IMG/VR virus record: IMGVR_UViG_3300021962_000129
Location: 1-56,495 of that record
DNA from: a virus
Lineage: Duplodnaviria; Caudoviricetes
Length of the DNA stretch: 56,495 nucleotides
Direction: 5' to 3' (one strand)
Shown here: piece after piece, positions 2,179 to 17,494 of the stretch
How the letters are laid out: the number at the start of each line of letters is the position of its first letter
Numbering within the stretch: position 1 is the stretch's first letter
Position numbers and translations under genes: made by a program
The notes under the pieces: model-generated
The model's input: the letters and a program-made list of their open reading frames with translations, nothing else
Databases searched by the model: none
What the model was told of the DNA's origin: nothing

Positions 2179-2502
2179 ATGATTAATGTTAAGTTTCTAA
2201 AAGAATGTTTCAGGCAATGCCTATTTCAACATTTAGACGAGGTTAGTCTGGCTGTTGGTAGGGGAGAAAAATTACCTGCCAGCAAAGGTGCTGGATTAAC
2301 AGCCAAAGGTCGTGCTAAATATAATAGAGCACACGGATCTAATTTAAAAGCTCCTGTTACGGGTAAAGTTAAAAAAGGTAGTAAAGCAGCTAAAAGACGT
2401 AAATCTTTTTGCGCTAGAATGCGTGGAGTTGTAAAGAAGTCCAAAAATGCCGAAAGAGCACGCGCCTCGCTTAGACGTTGGAAGTGTGGTGGAGTTAAGT
2501 AG
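2179..2502 (+). CDS. Small highly basic protein, probable capsid-internal or DNA-binding protein (DUF6321-like)
   Basis: GLTAKGRAKYNR...GSNLKAPV...RRKSFCARM...LRRWKC pattern recalled from myophage proteins; very Lys/Arg-rich. Confidence 0.65.
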   Translation: MINVKFLKECFRQCLFQHLDEVSLAVGRGEKLPASKGAGLTAKGRAKYNRAHGSNLKAPVTGKVKKGSKAAKRRKSFCARMRGVVKKSKNAERARASLRRWKCGGVK

Positions 2503-3577
2503 ACTCAAATTCTACCTCCTCTCCCACCCCAAACGAAGGTCCTACAAGAACTTCAATTTCCAGTGGGACACTAAAGCTAAATCCAAATTTCTCACGAATG
2601 TAAGGGTACTCAGTCATTTCATGATGCAAGACTTTAAGAACTTTCTTAGTCTCGTCTTTTGGACAGATAATTTCTACAGAGTCGTGGACTGTAGCAACGA
2701 TCTTAGCCTTGAAACCATTCTCCTTAAATCGTTTATTCAATCCAAGGATGCAGCTAAGAATTGTATCACTGGCTGCGGATTGAACAGTAAAATTTAGTCC
2801 CTGTCTAAGTGCTTGCTTTTGGACTGACTCAACGCGAGCATTAATGTTAGGAAGGTTCCTACGCCTACCGAAGATAGTGTAAGCATAACCTCTTTGCCTA
2901 ATATGCTCGAAAACGTGTTCCATGTAGCTTGGAACACCCGGAAAAGCTGCCATCCATCCATTGATAATCTCCGCTGCTCTCTTCTGAGGAATTCCCCTCT
3001 TACGAGCAAGGGTATAGTCTGACCCACCGTATACCACCAAGAAGGAAACTTCTTTTGCAATCTGCCTCTCCTCCTTAGTGATCTTGTCCATAGGCTTTCC
3101 AAATGTTACAGATGCAGAGTAAGTATGCAAATCCATACCTTCTTTAAAAGCCCGAGCCATGTTTCTTTCTCTGGCTAGGTGAGCCAAGATACGGAGTTCC
3201 ATGCTTTTCATGTCAGCGGTAATAAAATCCCAACCTTCAGGAGCTACTACATAACTTCTAATATTTACTGCACCACCTTCTCGGGGTAGAGTATGGAAGG
3301 AAACTCCCATCGTCTCATCAGCAGAGTACCCTGCATTAGACAGTCGGCCTGTGGCTGTACCATCAAGACGATAATCTACATAAATCTTATTATGTTTATT
3401 ATACTTGATAGCTGTATCCACACTTTTGATGTAAGTGTTGTATAACTTCTCTTCGGATCTAAGCTCTAAAAATTGAGTAATGAAATCCTGAATTTTAATA
3501 AGCTCTGCATCGGACTTCTGAGCTAGCACACTGGCACTGATGAGCTTATTTTGTTCTTCTTGCGTTCTTTTTCCCAT
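2495..3577 (-). CDS. polA: Family A DNA polymerase, palm/fingers part (third of three pieces)
   Basis: TATGRLS, motif A DMKSMELRILAHL, DLHT, motif B RQIAKEVSFLVVYG, GRRR, NFTVQSAASD, motif C VHDS. Confidence 0.93.
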   Translation of the reverse strand: MGKRTQEEQNKLISASVLAQKSDAELIKIQDFITQFLELRSEEKLYNTYIKSVDTAIKYNKHNKIYVDYRLDGTATGRLSNAGYSADETMGVSFHTLPREGGAVNIRSYVVAPEGWDFITADMKSMELRILAHLARERNMARAFKEGMDLHTYSASVTFGKPMDKITKEERQIAKEVSFLVVYGGSDYTLARKRGIPQKRAAEIINGWMAAFPGVPSYMEHVFEHIRQRGYAYTIFGRRRNLPNINARVESVQKQALRQGLNFTVQSAASDTILSCILGLNKRFKENGFKAKIVATVHDSVEIICPKDETKKVLKVLHHEMTEYPYIREKFGFSFSVPLEIEVLVGPSFGVGEEVEFEST

Positions 3578-4094
3578 TAGATTCCCTACGAGCTATTTCA
3601 TCCTTGATCTGAGTTAATAATAGATCCAATGCCTCAAAAGAGGTAGATGGTTGTCCTTTATCAGTAAAGATTGGTGGATACAAGTGAAAACCATAATTTT
3701 CAGTATCTTCAATCCAATCTTTCTCACTTTTGATTAGTGAATAGAATACTCTAATTAGATCTTGAGTAGATCCCATGTTCATATCTTTCTTTACTTCCGA
3801 GAAAGAATACAAAGCATCTTCGGTATCTATAATTTTATCTTTGAGTTGCTTTCCTAGGACCTTTAGCTGATCTTCAGAAATAATAAGTCCATCAAGCTCG
3901 ACCTCGGTAAAAAAAGTGATGGCTGGAGCCATCAAACTTTCATACACCTTAATCATTTCTAACTGACTTAGCTTATCATTAAGTACTTCATAAGATTTAT
4001 AGGTAAAGTAGCTATCCAGAGCGTTACCTTTAGCCATTTCAGCTAAAGGCATATCACCCCATACAATCGATTTTGGATTAGTTACTGTTAACAT
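3546..4094 (-). CDS. Family A DNA polymerase, ExoIII plus thumb part (second piece)
   Basis: ExoIII-like NALDSYFT, EVELDGL, NMGSTQDL (N..S..QL-like), TDKGQPSTSFEAL thumb motif. Confidence 0.85.
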   Translation of the reverse strand: MLTVTNPKSIVWGDMPLAEMAKGNALDSYFTYKSYEVLNDKLSQLEMIKVYESLMAPAITFFTEVELDGLIISEDQLKVLGKQLKDKIIDTEDALYSFSEVKKDMNMGSTQDLIRVFYSLIKSEKDWIEDTENYGFHLYPPIFTDKGQPSTSFEALDLLLTQIKDEIARRESNGKKNARRTK

Positions 4095-5125
4095 TAGGAT
4101 GCAAGCTCATGAGGGAAATAATAGTTGACGAGATCCTTGAGAGACTTAGGAAGGTTCTCATCCACAAGATGCTGCATAATCTTAGTATCCCATACATTGA
4201 TCATTTCTCCAACGCCAGCACGCTTAAAGAACTTTAAGTCGAATTTTGCATTGTGTAGGATCTTTCTGACGGGCGATGCAAAGACCTTACTCATGAAAGA
4301 AACTATCTCTGCCCTATCAACATCATTAAAGGGTGTTTCCTTATGATGGAATGGGATCACATAATTTTGATACTTTCCATTAGACTTAAAAGTTAATGCA
4401 ATCGTGAGAAGCTTGTCCGTAAGAAAGTTCAAACCCGTAGTCTCAGTATCAATAGCTATGAAACCTGAATCTAATGGAAAGGGTATGGATTTCAGCTTAC
4501 TAATAGAGTCCACAAGAGTATAACTGAAACCAGAAGTATTAACTTTCTTAAGTACGAATTCATTGACGGCATTCTCGATATCGGTTTGAAATAGGTAGCG
4601 GTTCTTTGGTTCGACGAGGACTTGGTATGGGTGGTAGATGGGGATAAGAGTGTATTCATGTCCTAATTCCGTTTTTAAGGGCATAGAACGCCCTCTCTTC
4701 TGCTCAATTCCAGTCTTCTTGGTTAGCATCACAAGGGGCAAATTACCACACCCAAAAACGATTCTGGGCTTTACTTTGTCTATGGTAGCTTCAAGATGCT
4801 TACGACAGATATCTTTATCCTGCTTAGACATATCATCAATCTTGACCCTAGGGCACTTAACTGCAGCGGTAAACTGAACTTTATCCAATATCTTACCAAA
4901 GCCACAGGACCCAAACACATCTAAAATAAGATCGATATCATCGTCTGTAAAGGGGGCCACGCCTCCATCGGATTGCATCTTAAAGGAGTCTGAGACCATT
5001 AAAATCTCAGACTCATGAAGTTCATTATAATCCATAATGGAATGCATTGGAAGGTTCTTTCCAAGAATGGAGCAACCTTTGCAACCATCATAAGTTATTT
5101 CGTACAAGTCTTTTAGAGAGTTCAT
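4094..5125 (-). CDS. Uracil-DNA glycosylase family 4-like domain fused to 3'-5' exonuclease ExoI/ExoII (first polymerase piece)
   Basis: CKGC, AVKC, CRKHL and YHP give a 4Fe-4S UDG-like pattern; followed by IDTETTG, HNAKFD, DTKIM and SLKDL exonuclease motifs. Confidence 0.87.
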   Translation of the reverse strand: MNSLKDLYEITYDGCKGCSILGKNLPMHSIMDYNELHESEILMVSDSFKMQSDGGVAPFTDDDIDLILDVFGSCGFGKILDKVQFTAAVKCPRVKIDDMSKQDKDICRKHLEATIDKVKPRIVFGCGNLPLVMLTKKTGIEQKRGRSMPLKTELGHEYTLIPIYHPYQVLVEPKNRYLFQTDIENAVNEFVLKKVNTSGFSYTLVDSISKLKSIPFPLDSGFIAIDTETTGLNFLTDKLLTIALTFKSNGKYQNYVIPFHHKETPFNDVDRAEIVSFMSKVFASPVRKILHNAKFDLKFFKRAGVGEMINVWDTKIMQHLVDENLPKSLKDLVNYYFPHELAS

Positions 5126-5139
5126 CTATAATTAATGTA

Positions 5140-5487
5140 ATGCCTAATTACATTGATAATAAGAAATTTGAGAAGCTAATTAAAGAGCACTGTAAAGGTC
5201 GGCGCAAGAACGAGGCAGAACTATTCCACCTGTTCGACCTTCTTATTTCCAATATCATAGACTCTTTTCACTTCAAAGTCGATAAGGAAGATGCAAAACA
5301 AGAGTGTTTTGTTCTAGTACTAAAAACGCTTAAGAACTTTAAGCCTTCTCAAGGCAGCGCATTTAATTATTTTACGACAATAATCGTTAATAATCTCAAA
5401 CTAATTTTTACTAAACGTAAAAAATATTCTGAGAAAATTAACGATTACTTTGAGATTAAGTACGGTCAGAGTCCTAGTTCTCTGTAG
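5140..5487 (+). CDS. Minimal late-transcription sigma factor (T4 gp55-like)
   Basis: MPNYIDNKKF start, EDAKQE and NFKP...SAFNYFTTII resemble gp55/sigma region 2; start at 5140 preferred over 5047, which overlaps the polymerase. Confidence 0.75.
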   Translation: MPNYIDNKKFEKLIKEHCKGRRKNEAELFHLFDLLISNIIDSFHFKVDKEDAKQECFVLVLKTLKNFKPSQGSAFNYFTTIIVNNLKLIFTKRKKYSEKINDYFEIKYGQSPSSL

Positions 5488-5816
5488 ATATCACCGTTAT
5501 TTAGATGAACTTGAACATTGTTATCTTTAACAGTTACTAAAGTTGGGACTCTTGTAAGTTTAGACTTTATGTCCAATGCTTCTCTCATCATTTGAGTCCC
5601 ATCAGGAGTATCCCAAGTGCTTACAACAAAAACATCTCTTGTTGCAACTGGATCTTTATCTGACATAGACTCTAAAGTCTTCAACAAATTTTTACAAACT
5701 TCATCCCAATCTGAAACAATTAAAAAAGTAGACTTAATTTCTTTAGTGGCTAGATTGTCTAAAACCCTCTCTAAAGAATCGTGGTTTCTAAGATAACGAA
5801 TGTTAAAATTGATCAT
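5466..5816 (-). CDS. Thioredoxin-fold-like protein lacking CxxC
   Basis: SDWDEVC at the WCxxC position and a later RVPTLV cis-Pro-like motif. Confidence 0.5.
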   Translation of the reverse strand: MINFNIRYLRNHDSLERVLDNLATKEIKSTFLIVSDWDEVCKNLLKTLESMSDKDPVATRDVFVVSTWDTPDGTQMMREALDIKSKLTRVPTLVTVKDNNVQVHLNNGDIYRELGL

Positions 5817-5820
5817 TATT

Positions 5821-6282
5821 TCACTGAACTACTGGTGGCTGATCTGAATTTGGCTTCTTTTCGCCTTCTTCAGTTGAGTCTTTAACCTCAACAATACCAT
5901 TATCCAAAAGATCTTGATCTGTAGGCATCTCTGGTACAATTATTGAGTCTGTGGCATCTTGAGTTGAGTTTCCGTAAAGCTCCTTCTCAAGTTTTTCAAT
6001 GTCCACACCTTGTTCAAGGAGTTGCTTCCTAACATTCTCATCCTTAAGAGATTGCTTCGCCATCTCTGCTAGTTGATTGTTAAGGGCACCAACTCCGTTG
6101 AAGAATACTTGCTTATAGAAAGTATCCTCATCAACTTGAGGTGGCTTAATTTGACTTGTCCAATTTTTTAAAGCTTGTGCTTCGTCTTCAGAAAATTTAA
6201 TTGTTACTTTCATACGTCCTCTAGTTCTATATTCAATTTTGGCTTTAGCCTTATTACTATTTAGATAAAGCTTTTTACCCAT
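5821..6282 (-). CDS. Hypothetical protein
   Basis: 153 aa, basic N-terminus, acidic low-complexity C-terminus; first gene of a leftward unit. Confidence 0.65.
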   Translation of the reverse strand: MGKKLYLNSNKAKAKIEYRTRGRMKVTIKFSEDEAQALKNWTSQIKPPQVDEDTFYKQVFFNGVGALNNQLAEMAKQSLKDENVRKQLLEQGVDIEKLEKELYGNSTQDATDSIIVPEMPTDQDLLDNGIVEVKDSTEEGEKKPNSDQPPVVQ

Positions 6283-9588: not shown

Positions 9589-10224
9589 TCAGTTAGGGAA
9601 GAAACCTGTGGTTAGGTTAGCTCCCTCGTTTCTAATTCCACTTTGGAACATATCAATGAAGTCATACCTAAAGGTACACTCAATTGTATGGAAGTCATTA
9701 GTTCCATAATTATGCTCTCCAATGTTAACCTCTATAGGGAACACACCTATGAAATCTACATATGAATAAGGTGTTAATGTTCCATCATATTGAATCAATC
9801 TTACTTTTTCTGCTTTAAAACTCTTGCTAGCTGCAGCACCATTAGTGATTGGAGCAGAGTAACCAGTTAAAGGATCGTAAGCACAGGCTCTAAACCAAGC
9901 AAACAAGTTTGAACCAGTCTTGCTGGCGAATAAGTTATCGAAGGTAATCTTCAACTCATTCATATTGCTCTTGCCGGGATAGAAGTACCTGTCATTTAAT
10001 CTATGAACTTCGATTGGCTCTATTTTAGGGCCAGTAGCTGCAACTTGTTTGGCAGCTACGCTCATTTGTCTGATACTAAGTCCTTCTGCACCTTGTGGGA
10101 AGGTAAATTGAACTTCAAATTGATAAGCTCTTACTGAATCTAGCCCAGTAGAAAGTTTAGGTAATCTTGTTTGATTATTTGCTAACGCATTTCTTTCTGA
10201 AGCTAACCTATTAGATATTGCCAT
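9589..10224 (-). CDS. Tail tube protein (T4 gp19-like)
   Basis: YYPGK-like YFYPGK, ITFD, FAW and terminal F(R)YD; directly downstream of the sheath gene. Confidence 0.88.
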   Translation of the reverse strand: MAISNRLASERNALANNQTRLPKLSTGLDSVRAYQFEVQFTFPQGAEGLSIRQMSVAAKQVAATGPKIEPIEVHRLNDRYFYPGKSNMNELKITFDNLFASKTGSNLFAWFRACAYDPLTGYSAPITNGAAASKSFKAEKVRLIQYDGTLTPYSYVDFIGVFPIEVNIGEHNYGTNDFHTIECTFRYDFIDMFQSGIRNEGANLTTGFFPN

Positions 10225-10230
10225 ATTTTA

Positions 10231-12375
10231 TTATGCTCCTATGCTTGAGGTATTGTTAGTTAAATTAACCTCAAAGATTATATACTCAGCAGCCTCAACT
10301 GGCCTTAAGATAATCTTACACCACATCTCTCTTCTTGATACTCTTAATGGAGTATTTACGGTAGCATCGCAAATAACTCTTGATTCAGCGATACCTCTAC
10401 GAGAAGCGATGTCTCTTAGAATGTCCTCAACATTAGTTCTTACAGCCTCCCAAGTTACTGGATCATTAGGCTCGAAAATGTAAGCTCTGGTTGATTGCAG
10501 TAAGAGTTTTCTTAAGTAAATCATCAGTCTTCTAACACCAATTCTATCGGTGGCAGAAGGAAGTCTCTTTGCTGTCTTTTGTCCGAAGATTGTTATACCT
10601 TCTGGGAAGAACTTAACCATAGGGTTAATATTATTCTCATAAAGAGCATCCTTATCTCCTTGGCTTAAAATTTCCTCAGTATCAAGAGGCTTTGTTAATC
10701 TACCTCTTGTAAATCCTGCAGGAGCGAACCAAGGTTCAGCGGTGGAGTCTGTGAAAGCCATAGCTCGTACTCCATAAATTGCAGGATCTAACCAAATATC
10801 TCTTTGTGTATAAGTGCTGAAAATTTGAACGTGAGGCCAGTACACAGCAACGTATGAGCTATTTATTGCTGCTTTTCTATCTCCAAAAGTTCCTTTACCA
10901 TTCATCCAATCTACAGCTTTTTGAGCAGTAGATATTCCGTAAGGAGGAGAACATGCGGCAATAAAGTTTTGACTAGTCTCAGCTAAAGTAATTAATTCGT
11001 TTTGAACTGCTGCTTGATGAAATCCGGGAATTATAGCCATAGAGATATTTAAATTATCGTCATCTAAAGCGTACATTCCTGATTTAGTTGCTTTATCACC
11101 AATTATTGTTGCAATCACGCTACCCGAAGTATCAGTATCTTCAGCGATACCATTAATTCCTCCTGAAAGTGGATAAGTACCGGGAAGTAGTTTTACAAAC
11201 CTAGCATCTATAGCGGAAGCTTTCCATGAAGAAGGAGCATAACCAGCATTTTCAACATATATCCCAGAAGGAACAATGTTGAAAAGGTCGCTTATTGGTT
11301 GTGCTACTGACTCCAAAGAAACTATGGTTGTAGCAGATACAGCGGAACCTTCAAAAGATCCTTTAATAAAATCAGAATTTAAAGGAGTATCATTTTCTGA
11401 TTCTTTAATAACTTCGGTTATGAAAGTATTATCTCCATAGAATCCTACTCGGAACGATTCATTGACATAACCTTTATCGTTAACGTAGATATTAAAATAA
11501 GGACCAACAATATTATCCACTTCTACGCTTAGTCCAGTAACTTCCCCAGTCCTTAAAGACCTTCCCAAATTATAACCTAATCCACCATAAAGAGATTGAA
11601 TTAAATAACTAACTCCTTTTTGTAAAGTTAAACCATAACCACTAACAGCACTAGCAGAAGAAAGATTAGCTATAGTGAAAGGACCCGACCCACCCGTCCC
11701 AGACTGAAATGCTACTGAAGATAATAAGAAACATGTTACTGCTTTAGTGGTATCAAGATCACCTCCGCCCGTTAAAGCACTGGCTGATGATAATTCTAAA
11801 AGATATTCAGGACCAGCAACGGTTGCAAAAATATGAAGAGTATTGTCACCGGGATCTCTTGCAACTCCTACAAGATCAGCTTTAGCAGTACCATCGCCAA
11901 AAGCAGTTTGCATGGCTTCAAAAGAAGTGGCATATCCATTTCCGCTTGGTATTGAAAAAATCTTATCTAAAAGAACTGTGCCAGATTTAGATAATTTTGC
12001 CTTAATATACAAAGGTTCTGAACCAGAAGTAGAACCGAAGTAATTTGAATATGTTGAGCTAAAGGTTACATAAGGACATACACCTAAAGGAATTAAAGAA
12101 GAAGCTTCTACAGATCCACTTGCCGCTCTTACAAAATAAATTCTGTTTGTAACTTCAAGTATTTCTAGTGCGGCTAATAAACCTTGTCCTTGTAAATTCT
12201 CATTTGGTTCTCCAAATGTATTTACAAGTTGTTCTGGTGTTGTGATTAAAATAGCCTTATTTTCTGGCCCTTTATCAGCAAAACCAACTATACCAACGAT
12301 TGAAGAATCAACTGTTGCTGGATAAGCTGTTGCGTCAACTTCACGATAAGCAATGCCGGGACTTTTTAATACCAT
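10231..12375 (-). CDS. Tail sheath protein (T4 gp18-like)
   Basis: SPG..REVD N-terminus, PWFAPAGFTRG, INP, GQKT, RIGVRRL and FEPND. Confidence 0.96.
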   Translation of the reverse strand: MVLKSPGIAYREVDATAYPATVDSSIVGIVGFADKGPENKAILITTPEQLVNTFGEPNENLQGQGLLAALEILEVTNRIYFVRAASGSVEASSLIPLGVCPYVTFSSTYSNYFGSTSGSEPLYIKAKLSKSGTVLLDKIFSIPSGNGYATSFEAMQTAFGDGTAKADLVGVARDPGDNTLHIFATVAGPEYLLELSSASALTGGGDLDTTKAVTCFLLSSVAFQSGTGGSGPFTIANLSSASAVSGYGLTLQKGVSYLIQSLYGGLGYNLGRSLRTGEVTGLSVEVDNIVGPYFNIYVNDKGYVNESFRVGFYGDNTFITEVIKESENDTPLNSDFIKGSFEGSAVSATTIVSLESVAQPISDLFNIVPSGIYVENAGYAPSSWKASAIDARFVKLLPGTYPLSGGINGIAEDTDTSGSVIATIIGDKATKSGMYALDDDNLNISMAIIPGFHQAAVQNELITLAETSQNFIAACSPPYGISTAQKAVDWMNGKGTFGDRKAAINSSYVAVYWPHVQIFSTYTQRDIWLDPAIYGVRAMAFTDSTAEPWFAPAGFTRGRLTKPLDTEEILSQGDKDALYENNINPMVKFFPEGITIFGQKTAKRLPSATDRIGVRRLMIYLRKLLLQSTRAYIFEPNDPVTWEAVRTNVEDILRDIASRRGIAESRVICDATVNTPLRVSRREMWCKIILRPVEAAEYIIFEVNLTNNTSSIGA

Positions 12376-12384
12376 TTAATCACC

Positions 12385-12561
12385 TTATGCGTTAATAATT
12401 CTTATGAGTTTTCTTTTACCTAAAACTACAAGTTGTTCGGTAATTGCTGTATCCTCAACGACCAGCTTTTCTTTTGGTTTGAGCCACACAGCAGTCTGAC
12501 CTTCATTAGTTTTTAAGTATATCTCGAAACCCTGATTGGTTTCGTTTTTAATGATCTTCAT
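12385..12561 (-). CDS. Small hypothetical protein (58 aa), not in the ORF track
   Basis: AGGAG 6 nt before ATG; MKIIKNETNQGFEIYLKT...RKLIRIINA; its stop abuts the sheath RBS. Confidence 0.75.
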   Translation of the reverse strand: MKIIKNETNQGFEIYLKTNEGQTAVWLKPKEKLVVEDTAITEQLVVLGKRKLIRIINA

Positions 12562-12571
12562 AAGAAACTCC

Positions 12572-12585
12572 TATGTATATCTATA
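12572..12585 (-). promoter_or_regulatory. Two overlapping putative late promoters (TATAGATA, TATACATA)
   Basis: TA-N-ATA motif immediately upstream of the small ORF-sheath-tube unit. Confidence 0.55.
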
Positions 12586-12625
12586 TAAGTTAACTTAATT
12601 TTTTACTAAAAATATCCCTATTTTA

Positions 12626-13480
12626 TTAATTAGTTAACCATGTCATAGACTGTAATTCCTCTGGAGTTACATACTCTTCATGGCTATGTGAATGTGAGTG
12701 ATCGGGAACGTTTGTACCGGGAGTTGTTGGTTGAGCTTCTGCTTCTGTTATTGAGGTCAAAGCTGACTCAAGCTGTGCTACAGTTTGAGGTGTTAATTTT
12801 CCTGATTCAAACTCAAATTCAAAGTTAAGTTTTTCTATTTTTCCCGTAGAAGTGTATAGGAATTTTGGAGCGGGCATATAAGTTTCTAATGTTAGATTTA
12901 TAGACTTTTGCAGGACTCTATCTTCTTTGTCAGAAACTTTTACTTCAGAATCATCTTCTTCAGATTCAATAAAAACTTTAAGAATTAAATTACTATTAAC
13001 AGAAATGTTTAAATCTGGATTAAACATTGAAAATAGTATTTCTCTTAATTGATCTAAATCGTTCTTATAAAAAGACCATAAATTTAAGCTATATGAAATA
13101 GTTACAGGTCTAGGAGGTAAACTTACTATTCTGATTGCCCTTTGTAGTTTGGGGTGCCAATATTTCTCATCTATTAATAAAGGAGTGTATCTTTGTTTTT
13201 TATCAAATATAGCCGTTGAGTTTTCTGATATTGTTATGACAGGCAAAACTACATTAGCTTCATTAAATATAATACCTATTGCTCTTTCTGGATTTGCATG
13301 ATAGCATTTAACTCTTGTTGAATTGTTGTTGCCGTCCATGTAATTTATATTAGAAAATTTATTTATTAAATACCTTAAAGTATTTTTATACAAATAATGT
13401 ATATGCTTACTAGGATCAGAATCAATCTTTTTAAAGATTTCATCTACTATATCATGCCTAGCTCTAAGGGGTGTTCTCAT
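12626..13480 (-). CDS. Tail terminator / sheath stabiliser (T4 gp15-like)
   Basis: LPVITI, PRPVTISYSL and DQLREILFSMFNP pattern; follows the gp14-like gene. Confidence 0.75.
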   Translation of the reverse strand: MRTPLRARHDIVDEIFKKIDSDPSKHIHYLYKNTLRYLINKFSNINYMDGNNNSTRVKCYHANPERAIGIIFNEANVVLPVITISENSTAIFDKKQRYTPLLIDEKYWHPKLQRAIRIVSLPPRPVTISYSLNLWSFYKNDLDQLREILFSMFNPDLNISVNSNLILKVFIESEEDDSEVKVSDKEDRVLQKSINLTLETYMPAPKFLYTSTGKIEKLNFEFEFESGKLTPQTVAQLESALTSITEAEAQPTTPGTNVPDHSHSHSHEEYVTPEELQSMTWLTN

Positions 13481-14046
13481 AAGTCTATTTGATCTCCTAG
13501 TTGATTAGGTCTATTAAATGTTTTTTCATTATGAATAGATTCTGTATCTCTGAGAAGATTGCAGTAAGCTAATAAATGATAAACTCCGTATGATTCAAAA
13601 GAGTCTTCTGATACTTGATATATTTTATATTTTATATCTTGAAATAATGGAGCAATAATATCTCCTACTATTAAAGATCTTCCTAATTTTCTTTCTATAT
13701 AAAGTTTATTAAAAGTAAATATTTGATCGTTTTCTAAACTTATTCCAAATTGATTTAAGTTTTGTTCTATTGCTTTTGGTTCATAGTGAGCAAAGACAGT
13801 TATTGGTTCTTTAGATATAGCTTTAGATCTTGATTCCATATAAACATCATCGTACTCTTGAGAAGGGTAGTATTTGTAAATGTTTACTTTAGAACCAGAA
13901 ATCCTTATGGTTTCGTCATCTATTAAATTAAAAAGATCACGATCAGGATTTGAGTCATCAAAAAAATTAAGTATACTATCGTTAGCATCTACCTCAATTA
14001 TTGGTAGTTTTGTGGGAGGTTTTTTTACGACGTATTTTTCTTTCAT
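13477..14046 (-). CDS. Neck / head completion protein (T4 gp14-like)
   Basis: DETIRISGS, DDVYME, QFGI and GDII motifs; synteny. Confidence 0.75.
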   Translation of the reverse strand: MKEKYVVKKPPTKLPIIEVDANDSILNFFDDSNPDRDLFNLIDDETIRISGSKVNIYKYYPSQEYDDVYMESRSKAISKEPITVFAHYEPKAIEQNLNQFGISLENDQIFTFNKLYIERKLGRSLIVGDIIAPLFQDIKYKIYQVSEDSFESYGVYHLLAYCNLLRDTESIHNEKTFNRPNQLGDQIDL

Positions 14047-14909
14047 TAATATACTGAGAAGAGTGGTGGCTCTTCAATCTCCATTAATAACTCTTTCATA
14101 AGAGTTTCTTTTTCTTTAGCTGACTCTTGAAGTAAATCTTTACCATCCAAAGCAGCCCCCTTTCCGGGACCCGGAATAGATTGATACTTACCTCTTACTC
14201 TCCCTAAAACAGATTTAGCACAAGCTAAAGCGTACCTTTGTACCCAGTTCCTAAACGCTGGAAGTATGGTATTTGAATCCAGTGCCCTATATTCTAATAT
14301 GACTGGACTTGGAGTTACTGGAGGTTCTGGATATAATTGTAGATACTTTCCATTTACGATGTCGTAAGATCCATCTCTTGATAGGACTTTGCGAATCATT
14401 TCCATGTACTGCTGAACTAATAGATAATCACCAACATTCATATTTTGAAAAAATCTATTGTTTTGCCAGAATCCTAAAAAGAAATCAAATTCTAACGAGC
14501 CTTTACTAAATTGAAAAGCTAGTAAATCTTTTTGATAAATTACATAATTTAAATTATTAGCTACGAATGCTGGAAGTTCATATAAGCTAATTCCAGCAGA
14601 TGCGTCAAAAACTGCATATTGTAAAGCCCAACTTGGAGCGTGATAATCTAATTTAGTAACTGCCTCATCTATACAAGTTTTTATTTGAAATGGAGTTAAC
14701 TCAACTCTTACAACCGGATGCCCCAGTTGAGCCATTACATAATCTTTTATGGTTTGATCAAACTTGTTAAATTCGACGTTGTCGATTATTAAATTTTTAT
14801 TTAATGCATCAACATCAATATCAGAGGATTCTGTGTACAAAGTAAGATTATTACCTTTGTACTTACCATAAGATGAACCATACGCAGTAATCGTTGGTTT
14901 AGCTATCAT
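14046..14909 (-). CDS. Neck protein (T4 gp13-like)
   Basis: LGHPVVRVELT..QI..CIDEA, WVQRYALA..K..LG..RGKY and LDG motifs. Confidence 0.88.
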   Translation of the reverse strand: MIAKPTITAYGSSYGKYKGNNLTLYTESSDIDVDALNKNLIIDNVEFNKFDQTIKDYVMAQLGHPVVRVELTPFQIKTCIDEAVTKLDYHAPSWALQYAVFDASAGISLYELPAFVANNLNYVIYQKDLLAFQFSKGSLEFDFFLGFWQNNRFFQNMNVGDYLLVQQYMEMIRKVLSRDGSYDIVNGKYLQLYPEPPVTPSPVILEYRALDSNTILPAFRNWVQRYALACAKSVLGRVRGKYQSIPGPGKGAALDGKDLLQESAKEKETLMKELLMEIEEPPLFSVY

Positions 14910-15117
14910 TTAAATAATCTCCCGACTTTGTTGTTTTAATTTGTTTTTTTATTTCTTTCTTTTCAACGACTGGATTTGGATATTCAGTAACATCAACTAA
15001 AAAGTTATTGTATATAACCGAAGTCGAGGAGATTATTTCATTTGGTTTAACACAAAATATTTTATTATTTATGTTAATTGCTACTTTAAGATTAGATATA
15101 TTTTTGTATTTAAACAT
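14899..15117 (-). CDS. Small hypothetical protein
   Basis: 72 aa with GAGGAG RBS, preceded by a late-promoter motif. Confidence 0.65.
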   Translation of the reverse strand: MFKYKNISNLKVAININNKIFCVKPNEIISSTSVIYNNFLVDVTEYPNPVVEKKEIKKQIKTTKSGDYLNDS

Positions 15118-15131
15118 AACTCCTCTATTCT

Positions 15132-15139
15132 TATGTAGG
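15132..15139 (-). promoter_or_regulatory. Putative late promoter CCTACATA
   Basis: Just downstream of the capsid terminator and upstream of the neck genes. Confidence 0.55.
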
Positions 15140-15150
15140 GTCTATAAAAT

Positions 15151-15178
15151 AAAAAAGCGGGGCTTAAAGCCCCGCTTT
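15151..15178 (-). terminator. Rho-independent terminator after the major capsid gene
   Basis: Stem aaagcggggctt/aagccccgcttt followed by a T run on the minus strand. Confidence 0.9.
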
Positions 15179-15198
15179 ATAAGATAATCTTATTCAGA

Positions 15199-16839
15199 TC
15201 ATCTGGCTAGTGTGTTAGTGAGACCTAAGGTGCTAACGCGAGCAATAGAAGGTGTCATGTAGTTCTTACCTGCACCTACGAGTCTTATAACTCTGTAGAA
15301 TCTATTGGCTGGGGCGATTGCGGCCTTAGCATAACGGGTCATGATACCCTTTCTTGGTTGGAAGGTCTCAGGATCAGTTATGGTTTGGATTGGCATGAGT
15401 GGGATGTATGGGCAGTATACGAAGCCAGCATCCATTGGATTGGTTCCGTTATAACCGACGATGATCTCGTCTTCTGGGAAGAGAGGATCGACGATTAAGG
15501 TGTACTTGCCAGCAAACTTGCCACGGTACTCAATTCTGTTACCCATGTTGGTTGGGCCGTCCTTCTCAGGAAGACCACCCTCAAGCTTGGCGGCTGACTC
15601 TAGGAGTGAAGCGACCAGTGGTGAGGTGATCAGTACTGTACCGGGACCACGCATTGTGGTACGGTAAATGTCCTGTGAAGCATGGTTAATTAAAGCAAGC
15701 AGGTTGCTGTAAATGTGACCAACATGTTGAGGAGCAAAATTTATTCCAGTGAATCCGTAGATTGGATTAGTTAAATCCATTACGAATACGTTTGAACGAG
15801 CGGTATCGTTTGTTGGAATTTTATTTGTTCCAGTTGCTCCAAAATCCATATCGTATTGGAAGCTTGATGGGATAAATCCGTGAGTCTCATTTGGTGATTT
15901 ACCATAAGTCTCACCGAAATTATTAGCTCCATTATTATCCAATCTCTTTGGAGTCCATCCAAATCTATTAGTGGCATCATCTTGAGCAAATCCGTAAGCT
16001 ATTCCACGGATGTCTTCGATTAACTCACGATCAATTTCGAGAGCAATTTCCTTGCTGAGGAGATCAGTTAGCTCGCGCTCTAGATCAAGATTGTGGTAAG
16101 CCTTGAGATCTTGTGAAGCCTCAATGGTCCACAGGGCTCTCATCTTACGAGTCTTGGCTACTACAGCTTGATTCTCGATGTGGAAGCTAATTTCAGGAAT
16201 AGCTGAGTTAGCTAATCTCTCACCTGCTGACACGAACCAAGCCTCAACAGTATTCTCATCTGGGAAAGCAGCAATCTTACCACCGTAAGTTGAGCTGGGT
16301 GAACCTCTAGTTGAGCTTAGAACGTTTGAAAGATCAAAGGTTCCAGCACCACTATAGTTTGCGGGAATTAATCCACCGTTTCCGGTAGCATTCATATCAT
16401 TCCAAGGACCAGCAGTTCCGGGTGCGGAAACTGAACCAATACCTTCGGCTGTTAAGCCACGGTAAGTTAGATTATACTTTGAATAAACGTTTTGTTGCTT
16501 ATAAGTATTATCATTAGCTTTTCCTGCACGGCTGTTACCAATGTAGAAGATCTGGCTGACAGGTCCTTCCATTGGTTGGGTTGAACCAATCATGTTGAAG
16601 ATCAGTTCTGGGAATACTCTACGAACGATTGGGAAGGCAAACTTTTGGAAGGTGCCTAACTTGCCAACAGTTGTAGCTCCGGGAGTAAGCTGCTCCTCGG
16701 TCAGTTTGCTAGCCTCGGTCAGAACGGCCTTGGCTTGATTCTCTAAAAGTTGAGCGGTTACTTCAGCCATGTAGTCGGTCTTGATACCGTCTAGGGCTTT
16801 CTCCCACTTCTTAACGACATTACTATCAATTTTTTTCAT
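15199..16839 (-). CDS. Major capsid protein (T4 gp23-like)
   Basis: LLENQ, PIVRRVFP, QPMEGP, AKTRKMRALWTIEASQDL, EIDRE, YCPYIPL, TFQPRKGIMTRY; AGGAG supports start at 16839. Confidence 0.97.
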   Translation of the reverse strand: MKKIDSNVVKKWEKALDGIKTDYMAEVTAQLLENQAKAVLTEASKLTEEQLTPGATTVGKLGTFQKFAFPIVRRVFPELIFNMIGSTQPMEGPVSQIFYIGNSRAGKANDNTYKQQNVYSKYNLTYRGLTAEGIGSVSAPGTAGPWNDMNATGNGGLIPANYSGAGTFDLSNVLSSTRGSPSSTYGGKIAAFPDENTVEAWFVSAGERLANSAIPEISFHIENQAVVAKTRKMRALWTIEASQDLKAYHNLDLERELTDLLSKEIALEIDRELIEDIRGIAYGFAQDDATNRFGWTPKRLDNNGANNFGETYGKSPNETHGFIPSSFQYDMDFGATGTNKIPTNDTARSNVFVMDLTNPIYGFTGINFAPQHVGHIYSNLLALINHASQDIYRTTMRGPGTVLITSPLVASLLESAAKLEGGLPEKDGPTNMGNRIEYRGKFAGKYTLIVDPLFPEDEIIVGYNGTNPMDAGFVYCPYIPLMPIQTITDPETFQPRKGIMTRYAKAAIAPANRFYRVIRLVGAGKNYMTPSIARVSTLGLTNTLAR

Positions 16840-16858
16840 TTTGTATAAACTCCTGAAT

Positions 16859-17494
16859 TCACTTTTGCATAAGTGCAATGGTCTCCTCATTTAAGAAAGG
16901 GTTGAGGACACCAGAACCCTTGCGTGAAGACTCAGTTAAAGTCTCTCTCTTTTTGAAATTTTCTTCAGAGACTACGACTGCGTCTCCACTGACTTGCATT
17001 TTAGCCTTCTCTTTTCCTTCTCTGATGCTAACTTGCAAATCAGAAACTCTTGATTCAAGAAGACCGATTTTGTCCTTTTGAATCTTGATAACGTTTTTAA
17101 ATTTGTTATTTTCAGTTAGAACATTTTGAAGTTCTTCTGTAATAACGTTTAGATTCTTTTCGAGGTTTGTTTGTTCTAAAGCCATCATGTTGACAGCATT
17201 CACCTCATCCTCTGGTCCAACTTCGATAGCCATTATGGCTTTTAAGTGCTCATACATGGCAGCGTTGCGAACGGTATCGTTCTCCATCTCTAATTCTTTT
17301 AGAGCGTGCTCTTTTAGTTTTTCTATTTGACCACGAATAAATGAAGTGGTTTTTAAAGTTAAATCGGCCTTAACCTTCTCAACCTCTTCGGTAATTTTCT
17401 CACTAACAAGATTAGCAATCTCGATAGCTACTGATTCATCCAGATTTTCTGGCAGTAACTTTGCTATCTCTTCCATTTTATTTGTTTTTGCCAT
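16859..17494 (-). CDS. Prohead core scaffold protein (T4 gp22-like)
   Basis: Glu-rich coiled-coil between protease and capsid genes; AAGGA supports start at 17494. Confidence 0.75.
   Translation of the reverse strand: MAKTNKMEEIAKLLPENLDESVAIEIANLVSEKITEEVEKVKADLTLKTTSFIRGQIEKLKEHALKELEMENDTVRNAAMYEHLKAIMAIEVGPEDEVNAVNMMALEQTNLEKNLNVITEELQNVLTENNKFKNVIKIQKDKIGLLESRVSDLQVSIREGKEKAKMQVSGDAVVVSEENFKKRETLTESSRKGSGVLNPFLNEETIALMQK

What the first reader, a model, noticed from the sequence alone, without database searches (positions are those of the whole stretch)
2495..5125. Family A DNA polymerase split into three genes, with the proofreading site divided between two of them
Seen: three consecutive ORFs carry in order UDG-like + ExoI (DTETTG) + ExoII (HNAKFD); ExoIII-like (NALD) + thumb; then palm/fingers. 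Junction 1 is a TAATG stop/start overlap at 4092-4096; junction 2 is a 32-nt overlap with AGGGA before the ATG at 3577. No intervening DNA, so no intron or intein. Known: PolA enzymes are normally one chain, and T4 itself uses a family B polymerase. Inference: a heterotrimeric PolA whose exonuclease site assembles in trans. A +1 slip at GGG AAA AAG in junction 2 cannot be excluded.
Basis: partly seen in the sequence, partly recalled or inferred. Interest (0 to 1): 0.85.

Follow-up and report, generated by a model that had tools for sequence, protein, structure and literature searches.

The report
Three-gene family A DNA polymerase
An uncultured aquatic T4-like phage encodes its only detectable DNA polymerase as three separate adjacent genes, with the proofreading site shared between two of them, and hundreds of related phages do the same.

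Summary
Three minus-strand ORFs together cover one UDG-fused family A polymerase: p1 (5125..4094, 343 aa), p2 (4094..3546, 182 aa) and p3 (3577..2495, 360 aa).

- **Not an assembly error.** Contigs from 4 of 4 independent runs cross both junctions without indels.
- **Not specific to this phage.** In 74 of 74 related IMG/VR loci that hold all three pieces, the pieces lie in separate ORFs. Junction frames vary, and 27 loci carry 0.27-2.3 kb of other genes between p1 and p2.
- **Not decaying.** All three genes are under strong purifying selection, with median dN/dS 0.04-0.06.
- **No close single-chain relative.** The best protein over 630 aa is 36% identical.
- **No rival polymerase.** Three complete relatives have no PolB, no Pol III alpha and no second PolA.

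The p1/p2 break lies between ExoII and ExoIII. p2 supplies the ExoIII aspartate, but the usual tyrosine is an invariant glycine. The p2/p3 break lies in a thumb loop.

Two-gene PolA splits are already published; I found no three-gene one. Physical assembly into a heterotrimer is inferred, not shown. Verdict: a new variant of a known kind.

The parts
5126..5134 (-). Promoter-like TAATTATAG motif directly abutting the p1 start codon. It suggests a leaderless start for the three-gene operon.
   Evidence: Read directly. A TAT(A/C/T)ATAG-type motif lies 0-6 nt before the p1 start in nearly all distinct relatives printed. The same motif precedes p2 in loci where other genes separate p1 from p2. Only 1 of 51 distinct p1 upstream contexts has a Shine-Dalgarno-like tetramer. 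Promoter function is inferred, not shown.
4094..5125 (-). p1, 343 aa. It holds a family-4-UDG-like domain (about residues 10-185) plus the N-terminal two thirds of the 3'-5' exonuclease domain, with ExoI (D226, E228) and ExoII (D296).
   Evidence: Pfam UDG and DNA_pol_A_exo1. A profile of 27 homologs hits the family 4 UDG structure 4zbx at E 6.6e-15, and Klenow chain 7-127 with profile positions 199-322. D226, E228, D296 and four cysteines (C15, C18, C91, C107) are invariant in 27 of 27 sequences. The UDG motif GE(A/G)PG is replaced by SDSxK (alignment).
4433..4450 (-). ExoI motif DTETTG (p1 residues 226-231).
4238..4255 (-). ExoII motif HNAKFD (p1 residues 291-296).
4092..4096 (-). Junction 1: TAATG, where the p1 stop overlaps the p2 start. 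It corresponds to about Pol I residues 472-475, between ExoII and ExoIII.
   Evidence: The same one-base stop/start overlap occurs in 41 of 74 relatives, and 27 of 74 have 274-2287 nt inserted here instead. The position is mapped.
3546..4094 (-). p2, 182 aa. This bridging piece holds the ExoIII helix (G23-N24-A-L-D27), the exo-pol linker and the first half of the thumb.
   Evidence: A profile of 27 homologs aligns to Klenow chain 158-294 at E 2.1e-12, placing G23 opposite Y and D27 opposite D of YAAED. In a search of 1.84 billion representatives it gave 138 hits, and 79 of these are full-length stand-alone proteins of 150-200 aa.
4014..4028 (-). ExoIII-equivalent motif GNALD (p2 residues 23-27). 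The aspartate is kept and the tyrosine is replaced by glycine.
   Evidence: G23, N24 and D27 are invariant in 27 of 27 sequences. G-N stands at D-4/D-3 in 69 of 79 full-length stand-alone p2 representatives. The single-chain relatives P0252 and P0254 have Y at that position.
3546..3577 (-). Junction 2: a 32-nt overlap of the p2 end and the p3 start, with p3 in the +1 frame. An AGGGA Shine-Dalgarno-like site lies at 3587..3583.
   Evidence: A Shine-Dalgarno-like tetramer lies upstream of p3 in 48 of 55 distinct contexts, against 18.5% of background windows. In the natural fused relative P0204 the equivalent point lies in a coil (residues 169-182) between two helices. That coil has the lowest confidence in a model of mean pLDDT 90.8.
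2495..3577 (-). p3, 360 aa. It holds the second half of the thumb, the palm and the fingers, with motifs A (D122, E127), B (R171, K175, F179, Y183) and C (H298, D299, S300).
   Evidence: Pfam DNA_pol_A at 253.9 bits. It aligns to Bst and Taq large fragments at E 1.5e-47. The motif residues are invariant in 24 of 24 sequences.
2463..2477 (-). Weak terminator-like hairpin 18 nt after the p3 stop. It may mark the operon end.
   Evidence: The number of such sites (2) is no higher than in shuffled sequence (mean 1.7), so this is only a consensus match.

Best explanation
The three genes are a naturally fissioned UDG-fused family A DNA polymerase. It is most likely the phage's replicative polymerase.

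**Expression (inferred).**
- The genes are probably transcribed together from a promoter-like motif that abuts the p1 start.
- p2 probably starts by termination-reinitiation at TAATG.
- p3 probably starts from its own Shine-Dalgarno site inside the end of p2.

**Assembly (inferred).** The three chains would then join non-covalently into one enzyme.
- p1 gives the UDG-like domain and the ExoI and ExoII carboxylates.
- p2 is a staple that completes the exonuclease fold with the ExoIII aspartate and also forms the first half of the thumb.
- p3 gives the rest of the thumb, the palm and the fingers.

**Shown here.**
- The gene structure and its accuracy.
- Its conservation.
- Purifying selection on all three genes.
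- The mapping of the breaks onto PolA.
- The absence of other polymerases from complete relatives.

**Inferred only.** Co-transcription, translational coupling, physical assembly and catalytic activity.

**History.** The break inside the exonuclease domain seems the older one. Relatives exist that have p1 separate but p2 and p3 fused.
For: **Real sequence.** Contigs from 4 of 4 independent runs (4 studies) cover both junctions with no indel.
- One 2113-nt contig with 0 differences spans 2731-4843.
- Diverged strains with 21 and 66 substitutions over 693 nt still have 0 gaps.

**Conserved split.**
- The best 120 homologs of p3 within 198-630 aa are all 353-376 aa long, at 50-100% identity.
- 357 IMG/VR stretches encode a relative. 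80 loci were kept, and 74 of these hold all three pieces.
- All 74 have the pieces in separate ORFs.

**Independent genes, not a frameshift.**
- The p2-to-p3 frame offset is +1 in 66 loci, -1 in 7 and 0 in 1 (L024, which has a 585-nt insert there).
- 27 of 74 loci have 274-2287 nt between p1 and p2.
- These inserts often hold opposite-strand ORFs. L018 has an HNH endonuclease, and L024 has a 2OG-Fe(II) oxygenase and a DUF6445 protein.
- p3 has a Shine-Dalgarno-like site in 48 of 55 distinct contexts, against 18.5% of background windows.

**Function kept.**
- Median dN/dS is 0.062 for p1 (24 pairs), 0.059 for p2 (62 pairs) and 0.037 for p3 (34 pairs). The pairs are not independent.
- The catalytic residues are invariant.

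**Complementary pieces.**
- p1 covers Klenow chain 7-127.
- p2 covers Klenow chain 158-294.
- p3 starts at about chain 270-304.
- The fused natural relative P0204 folds as a PolA, with TM 0.70 to the Bst large fragment over 513 columns.

**Only polymerase.** PolB, Pol III alpha and a second PolA were absent from 5 of 5 relatives searched. Three of these are 99-100% complete genomes of 111-131 kb.

**No close unsplit form.** The best protein of 631-2000 aa is 36% identical at 184 bits, against 400-650 bits for the split forms.

**An intermediate exists.** L087 has p1 (332 aa), a 92-aa ORF and then a fused p2+p3 of 563 aa, in the same gene neighbourhood.
Against: - No direct evidence of binding or activity was obtained.
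- The ExoIII tyrosine is missing: G-N-x-x-D replaces Y-x3-D. Proofreading may therefore be altered or weak.
- Motif C reads HDS, not HDE.
- The window is only about 49% of a genome by CheckV, so another polymerase in the unseen half of this particular phage is excluded only by analogy with complete relatives.
- An A-run that would allow a +1 slip lies in junction 2 here and in L001.
- One relative (L057) has an early stop in p3.
- The tree needs two changes for the three-gene state, because the fused P0204 nests inside the three-gene clade on a long branch. The history is therefore not a simple single fission.
Confidence: 0.85

Rival explanations
1. A programmed +1 ribosomal slip on GGG AAA AAG in junction 2 makes a fused p2-p3 chain, either as the working form or as an additional form. 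The enzyme would then have two subunits, not three.
For: tRNA-Lys on AAA can re-pair one base downstream on the five-A run, and that puts the ribosome in the p3 frame. The closest relative L001 also has a five-A run in its 17-nt overlap.
Against: - In 55 of 74 relatives the overlap is only 8 nt and has no homopolymer run.
- 7 of 74 relatives need the opposite shift, and L024 has 585 nt with another gene between p2 and p3.
- In several loci a stop in the p3 frame lies directly before the p3 start (for example L012 and L014).
- The p3 N-terminus is conserved from its start codon onward.
- p3 has its own Shine-Dalgarno-like site in 48 of 55 distinct contexts.
Confidence: 0.07
2. The pieces do not reassemble. 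On this view p3 works as an exonuclease-free polymerase, while p1 and p2 have drifted to other or no roles.
For: The ExoIII tyrosine is lost, the UDG catalytic motif is lost, and no binding data exist.
Against: - p3 alone lacks the first half of the thumb, and p1 alone lacks the ExoIII helix.
- All three genes stay adjacent or near-adjacent in the same order in 74 of 74 loci.
- The four carboxylates are invariant.
- dN/dS is equally low for all three genes.
Confidence: 0.05
3. The splits are assembly or sequencing errors, or the gene is a decaying pseudogene.
For: Frameshifted PolA annotations do occur. One example is Rhizobium phage L338C, annotated as two overlapping CDS where its relatives match in one piece.
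Against: - There are no indels in contigs from 4 of 4 independent runs.
- The layout is conserved in 74 of 74 loci.
- dN/dS is 0.04-0.06.
- No other polymerase is present in complete relatives.
Confidence: 0.01
4. The chains are joined after translation by protein trans-splicing (split inteins), or at the RNA level by an intron.
For: A distant single-chain relative, P0249, carries an intein with an HNH domain inside its polymerase domain. An HNH endonuclease gene sits at junction 1 in L018.
Against: - No intein or Hint domain is found in p1, p2 or p3.
- Nothing is left unaccounted for. p1 ends and p2 begins in sequence that aligns with PolA.
- There is no intervening DNA in the window.
- Where DNA is inserted in relatives, it often carries opposite-strand ORFs.
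Confidence: 0.02

Closest known systems
S-SBP1-like split PolA of T7-like cyanophages (Czernecki et al. 2023, PMC10201439; I read passages found by term search)
   Same: A family A polymerase fissioned at the gene level into adjacent overlapping genes. The authors argue for fission rather than frameshifting, and for preserved association of the pieces.
   Different: That enzyme has two genes, with the break between the exonuclease and polymerase domains and no UDG domain, and it belongs to the T7-like cluster. Here there are three genes. One break lies inside the exonuclease domain (between ExoII and ExoIII) and one lies inside the thumb. The host is a T4-like myovirus.
Single-chain UDG-PolA enzymes: the N4-like cluster 17 and SPO1-type (described in PMC10201439); also the metagenomic relatives P0252, P0254 and P0268 found here
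   Same: The domain order is family-4-UDG-like, then 3'-5' exonuclease, then polymerase. As reported for N4-like enzymes, the UDG catalytic motif is degenerate.
   Different: Those are one chain of about 780-890 aa and keep Y-x3-D at ExoIII. Their polymerase region is only 21-29% identical to p3. I made no direct comparison with N4 itself.
Two-gene form in the related uncultured phage locus L087 (protein P0204)
   Same: It has the same gene neighbourhood (RusA-like, sigma-like, p1 and ThyX genes), the same junction 1 and the same G-N-x-x-D motif. It is 43% identical to p3.
   Different: p2 and p3 are one 563-aa chain. In the tree it sits inside the three-gene clade on a long branch, so it may be a secondary re-fusion.
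Other split phage polymerases: the two-gene polymerase of OM43 phages MEP401/402 (PMC10580990), the split polymerase of an uncultured cyanophage lineage (bioRxiv 10.1101/325100), P-SSP7 and magrovirus PolB (mentioned in PMC5434244), and a chimallivirus split polymerase (PMC13648687, search listing and start of abstract only)
   Same: Replicative polymerases encoded in more than one gene occur repeatedly in phages.
   Different: In the passages I read, all are two-part and none is reported to divide the exonuclease active site. I did not test sequence relatedness to this clade. No record in the phage collection exceeded about 33% identity to p3.

Membership tests
Family A DNA polymerase (Pfam PF00476) | Whole-protein score above the curated cut-off for the polymerase domain | tested here: met
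   p3 scores 253.9 bits against a cut-off of 34.3, covering profile positions 71-379 of 381. The missing first 70 positions lie in p2.
Family A DNA polymerase (Pfam PF00476) | Motif A aspartate, motif B R-x3-K-x3-F/Y-x3-Y-G, and motif C H-D | tested here: met
   D122 and E127; R171, K175, F179, Y183 and G184; H298 and D299. All are invariant in 24 of 24 sequences and align to Bst motifs. The residue after H-D is Ser, not Glu.
DEDDy 3'-5' exonuclease domain of PolA (Pfam PF01612) | The four carboxylates of ExoI (D-x-E), ExoII (D) and ExoIII (D) | tested here: met
   D226, E228 and D296 are in p1. D27 is in p2 and aligns to the Asp of Klenow YAAED. The carboxylates sit on two chains.
DEDDy 3'-5' exonuclease domain of PolA (Pfam PF01612) | The tyrosine four residues before the ExoIII aspartate (Y-x3-D) | tested here: not met
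   The position is Gly23, invariant in 27 of 27 sequences. G-N is found there in 69 of 79 full-length stand-alone p2 representatives. The single-chain relatives P0252 and P0254 have Tyr.
Family 4 uracil-DNA glycosylase (Pfam PF03167) | Four cysteines that bind the Fe-S cluster | tested here: met
   C15, C18, C91 and C107 are invariant in 27 of 27 sequences. They align with the cysteines of 4zbx (alignment).
Family 4 uracil-DNA glycosylase (Pfam PF03167) | Catalytic motif A, G-E-(A/G)-P-G (the motif itself is recalled from memory) | tested here: not met
   The aligned segment reads S-D-S-x-K where 4zbx has GEAPGE. The His-Pro of motif B is kept (H165, P166).
S-SBP1-like two-gene split PolA (PMC10201439) | A single break at the exonuclease/polymerase domain boundary, in a T7-like PolA | tested here: not met
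   There are two breaks here. One is at about Pol I residues 472-475, inside the exonuclease domain. The other is in the thumb, after the PSTS-E-L-L helix.
Programmed ribosomal frameshift gene pair | A slippery site and frame relation conserved among relatives | tested here: not met
   The frame offset is +1 in 66, -1 in 7 and 0 in 1 of 74 loci. The common 8-nt overlap has no homopolymer run.
Split intein / protein trans-splicing | Intein N and C halves at the ends of the pieces | tested here: not met
   No Hint or intein family is found in p1, p2 or p3 at E up to 0.01. The ends of the pieces align with PolA sequence.

The most novel reading that the evidence does not exclude
This would be an obligate three-subunit family A replicase in which the small middle subunit p2 is an exchangeable staple. 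p2 carries the last exonuclease carboxylate and half of the thumb. On this reading, the loss of the ExoIII tyrosine (G-N-x-x-D), which accompanies the split in every split form examined, marks a rewired proofreading site that exists only in the assembled complex. Proofreading and processivity could then be tuned by subunit stoichiometry or timing. The junctions also act as landing sites for homing endonucleases and other inserted genes, and insertion of this kind may have driven the fissions.
Probability: 0.3. Interest if true: 0.75.

Novelty: new variant of a known kind. Interest (0 to 1): 0.6.

Why it matters
- **Tolerance of the PolA fold.** Split polymerases show which parts of the PolA fold tolerate chain breaks. 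A natural, widely conserved enzyme cut inside the exonuclease domain and inside the thumb would give two permissive sites chosen by nature. It would also give a system where the proofreading site forms only on assembly, which bears on polymerase engineering and on the coupling between exonuclease and polymerase domains.
- **Surveys of aquatic viruses.** polA is a common marker for virioplankton. At least 357 IMG/VR stretches carry this form, in which the polymerase gene is only about 360 codons long and lacks the exonuclease part. Length filters or domain filters could drop these viruses or misclassify them.
- **Polymerase replacement.** This is a phage with T4-like capsid and tail genes that replicates with a PolA instead of the T4-type PolB.

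Tried and rejected
- **The search for related loci with p3 alone.** It found no relative. The 24-sequence alignment A1 then found 357.
- **The search for related loci with P0239.** It found no locus. A separate p1 upstream of the basal two-gene forms P0238, P0239 and P0250 is therefore unverified. Only L087 (P0204) was checked.
- **DNA-level search of the phage collection.** It matched only about 100 nt of the neighbouring DUF6321 gene in Pelagibacter and Methylophilales phages, and nothing in the polymerase genes.
- **Protein searches of the phage collection.**
  - p3 gave at most about 33% identity.
  - p1 gave at most 29%.
  - p2 gave no match.
  - No cultured relative is therefore available.
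- **Complex prediction on p1 + p2 + p3 with alignments, p2 as partner.** The tool gave no verdict. The score was 0.88. Controls with p2 replaced scored 0.00 and 0.00. The control with p3 replaced scored 0.84, so the tool judged the score not specific. I use this neither for nor against binding.
- **The look-up of sequencing runs.** No RNA holder was listed, so I have no transcript evidence.
- **Promoter and terminator consensus scan of 2300-5400.** It found 4 promoter-like and 2 terminator-like sites, no more than in shuffles. It is uninformative.
- **The search of earlier findings by sequence with p2.** Nothing was found.
- **Literature searches.**
  - They found only two-part PolA splits, and no description of a three-gene PolA or of this clade.
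  - Term searches found no occurrence of my terms in PMC6302109. The occurrences in PMC11348598 and PMC4360716 did not concern a split polymerase.
Those of PMC10201439 and PMC11348598 could list further split PolAs that I could not see.
- **Idea considered but not established.** The C-terminus of p2 and the N-terminus of p3 both align to the same thumb helix of unsplit enzymes. This hints at a short duplication at the break, but the segments are too short for a test.
- **Simple history of one fission after another.** The tree needs two changes for the three-gene state. Several rows sit on long branches, and the root is only a midpoint. I claim only that the junction 1 split is the more widespread one.


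Full report
**What is in the window**

Three minus-strand ORFs follow each other: p1 (5125..4094, 343 aa), p2 (4094..3546, 182 aa) and p3 (3577..2495, 360 aa).
- p1 stops and p2 starts in TAATG (4096..4092).
- p3 starts 32 nt before p2 ends, in the +1 frame, with AGGGA eight bases upstream.
- Pfam finds a UDG domain and DNA_pol_A_exo1 in p1, nothing in p2, and DNA_pol_A from profile position 71 to 379 of 381 in p3.
- The three map in order onto one PHROG polymerase profile, at 543-785, 795-933 and 931-1239.

**What the phage is**

- The window is an IMG/VR virus record judged about 49% complete.
- It carries tail sheath, tail tube, head-tail adaptor and major head genes.
- Its major head protein is about 32-34% identical to those of T4-like cyanophages.
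- So it is a distant T4-like myovirus that uses a PolA.
- No record in the phage collection is close. p3 reaches about 33% identity at best, p1 reaches 29% at best, and p2 has no match.

**Is the sequence right?**

The stretch is held by 19 runs at half or more of its sampled words. The 20 holders listed come from 12 studies. I laid contigs from four runs of four different studies, leaving out the three possible source samples.
- No insertion or deletion was listed anywhere in 2400-5300.
- One 2113-nt contig identical to the window spans both junctions.
- Diverged strains, with 21 and 66 substitutions over 693 nt, cross junction 2 without gaps.

**Is the split conserved?**

- The best 120 homologs of p3 among proteins of 198-630 aa are all 353-376 aa long, at 50-100% identity.
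- An alignment of 24 of them starts at the same methionine and keeps motifs A, B and C invariant.
- With that alignment, 357 IMG/VR stretches encoded a relative, and 80 loci were kept.
- 74 of the 80 hold matches to all three pieces. The other six are cut by contig ends.
- In all 74 the pieces lie in separate open frames.

Junction 1 across the 74 loci:

| Arrangement | Loci |
|---|---|
| Same one-base stop/start overlap as the window | 41 |
| 17-nt overlap | 3 |
| Gap of 1-42 nt | 3 |
| 274-2287 nt of inserted DNA | 27 |

Junction 2 across the 74 loci:

| Arrangement | Loci |
|---|---|
| 8-nt overlap | 55 |
| 4-nt overlap | 7 |
| 11-41 nt overlap | 11 |
| 585-nt insert (L024) | 1 |

- The p2-to-p3 frame offset is +1 in 66 loci, -1 in 7 and 0 in 1.
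- The inserts often carry ORFs on the opposite strand.
- Named inserts are an HNH endonuclease in L018, and a 2OG-Fe(II) oxygenase and a DUF6445 protein in L024.
- One locus, L057, has an early stop in p3.

**Separate translation**

- A Shine-Dalgarno-like tetramer lies upstream of p3 in 48 of 55 distinct contexts and of p2 in 21 of 54.
- It lies upstream of p1 in only 1 of 51, against 18.5% of 4440 background windows.
- p1 is instead preceded, within 0-6 nt, by a TAT(A/C/T)ATAG-type motif. In the window this is TAATTATAG at 5126-5134.
- The same motif precedes p2 wherever other genes separate it from p1.
- I read this as a promoter giving leaderless messages. That is inference.

**Selection and alternatives**

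- Median dN/dS over pairs with dS of 0.05-1.5 is 0.062 for p1, 0.059 for p2 and 0.037 for p3. The pairs share ancestry.
- In five relatives, three of them 99-100% complete at 111-131 kb, there is one PolA match and one p2 match each. None has PolB or Pol III alpha.
- Among proteins of 631-2000 aa the best match to p3 is 36% identical at 184 bits, and these are bacterial Pol I.
- An exhaustive search with p2 over 1.84 billion representatives gave 138 hits.
  - 79 of these are full-length stand-alone proteins of 150-200 aa that start like p2.
  - A few are 515-563-aa proteins that start at p2 residue 1 and continue into a polymerase domain.
  - Distant single-chain UDG-exonuclease-polymerase proteins of 774-891 aa score only E 1e-6 to 1e-4.

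**Where the breaks fall**

Pol I residue numbers in this section are recalled (Klenow chain number plus 323).
- A profile of p1 matches Klenow chain 7-127 with its positions 199-322 of 344, so p1 ends near Pol I residue 472.
- A profile of p2 matches Klenow chain 158-294 at E 2.1e-12.
  - Gly23 lies opposite the Tyr of YAAED (Y497 by the numbering above).
  - Asp27 lies opposite its Asp (D501 by the same numbering).
- The exonuclease carboxylates are thus split three to one between p1 and p2.
- The tyrosine is not kept.
  - G23, N24 and D27 are invariant in 27 of 27 sequences.
  - G-N stands there in 69 of 79 full-length stand-alone p2 representatives.
  - The fused two-gene forms also have G-N.
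  - The single-chain relatives P0252 and P0254 have Tyr.
- p2 then runs through the linker and the first thumb helices. p3 picks up before the conserved L-x-Y-R-x-x-x-K-L-x-x-T-Y segment.
- I modelled the natural fused relative P0204 (mean pLDDT 90.8, pTM 0.88).
  - The point equivalent to junction 2 lies in a coil (residues 169-182) between two helices. That coil has the lowest confidence in the model.
  - The model matches the Bst large fragment at TM 0.70 over 513 columns.

**The UDG-like domain**

The p1 profile hits family 4 UDG structures (4zbx, E 6.6e-15), and all four cluster cysteines are invariant. The catalytic GE(A/G)PG segment reads SDSxK.

**History**

- L087 shows an intermediate layout in the same gene neighbourhood: p1 (332 aa), a 92-aa ORF, a fused p2+p3 (563 aa) and then ThyX.
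- I built a tree of the polymerase region with 37 rows: 24 three-gene, 5 presumed two-gene and 8 single-chain. It has a midpoint root and many long branches.
- The tree puts the split forms together (support 95/81), with P0238, P0250 and P0239 basal to a clade of 25 rows (94/94).
- The fused P0204 sits inside that clade (98/93) on a long branch. The three-gene state therefore needs two changes.
- This means either two fissions at junction 2 or a re-fusion in P0204. P0278 groups with the single-chain forms and is unresolved.
- I conclude only that the junction 1 break is the more widespread, and probably older, one.

**What is known**

- Czernecki et al. 2023 (PMC10201439, passages read) describe S-SBP1-like T7-like PolAs split into exonuclease and polymerase genes 'for the first time'. 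They describe UDG-PolAs only as single chains.
- Two-part splits are also reported in:
  - OM43 phages (PMC10580990);
  - an uncultured cyanophage lineage (bioRxiv 10.1101/325100);
  - P-SSP7, mentioned in PMC5434244.
- Five literature searches found no three-gene PolA and no split inside the exonuclease site. Supplements were closed.

**Verdict**

This is a real, conserved gene structure, best read as a three-subunit UDG-PolA with the exonuclease site formed across two chains. Assembly and activity are inferred. It is a new variant of a known kind of system.

Noticed in passing
window 5126-5134; relatives such as L020, L026, L038 and L069 just before their p2 start: A TAT(A/C/T)ATAG-type motif lies 0-6 nt before start codons that lack a Shine-Dalgarno site. 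It precedes p1 everywhere, and precedes p2 where other genes separate it from p1. It looks like a phage promoter giving leaderless messages.
   Followed up: partly
window 2678-2686 (p3 H298-D299-S300): Motif C reads H-D-S instead of H-D-E, invariantly in 24 of 24 relatives. The same is true of the fused forms P0204 and P0239 and the single-chain P0252, so the change is not tied to the split.
   Followed up: partly
L018:4844-5458; L024:4274-4828 and 5360-5983; L020:5008-5520 (minus strand); L038:3243-5208: The polymerase junctions act as insertion sites in relatives. Inserts include an HNH endonuclease, a 2OG-Fe(II) oxygenase, a DUF6445 protein, and recurrent opposite-strand ORFs of 142-330 aa with no Pfam match. 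Several of those ORFs have Gly/Ala-rich hydrophobic stretches.
   Followed up: partly
L057, about 6001-6030: The p3 homolog in this locus has an in-frame stop nine codons after its start. It is the only one of 74 loci with a disrupted piece, and could be a sequencing error or a dead copy.
   Followed up: no
L088 (NC_023502.1, Rhizobium phage vB_RleS_L338C) 2848-3738 and 3678-5675: Its PolA is annotated as two CDS overlapping by 61 nt, while related Rhizobium phages match in one piece. This could be a frameshift error or another independent split.
   Followed up: no
protein P0249 (1129 aa, metagenomic): This is a single-chain UDG-exonuclease-polymerase relative with an intein carrying an HNH domain inside the polymerase domain.
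   Followed up: no
window 2179-2502 (+): A DUF6321 gene converges on p3, and its end overlaps the p3 stop by 8 nt. About 100 nt of it are 75-84% identical to genes of Pelagibacter and Methylophilales phages. It was the only DNA-level match of the region to cultured phages.
   Followed up: no
window 3549-3620 (p2 C-terminus) and 3500-3577 (p3 N-terminus): Both ends align to the same thumb helix (S-T-S/D-x-E-x-L-E-x-L) of unsplit PolAs, and the fused P0204 has both in tandem. A short duplication may have preceded the break. The segments are too short to test.
   Followed up: partly
window 9589-16890 and relatives G001-G003: The phage combines T4-like head and contractile tail genes with a PolA. 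Complete relatives of 111-131 kb have no PolB. This looks like a case of polymerase replacement in a T4-like lineage.
   Followed up: partly
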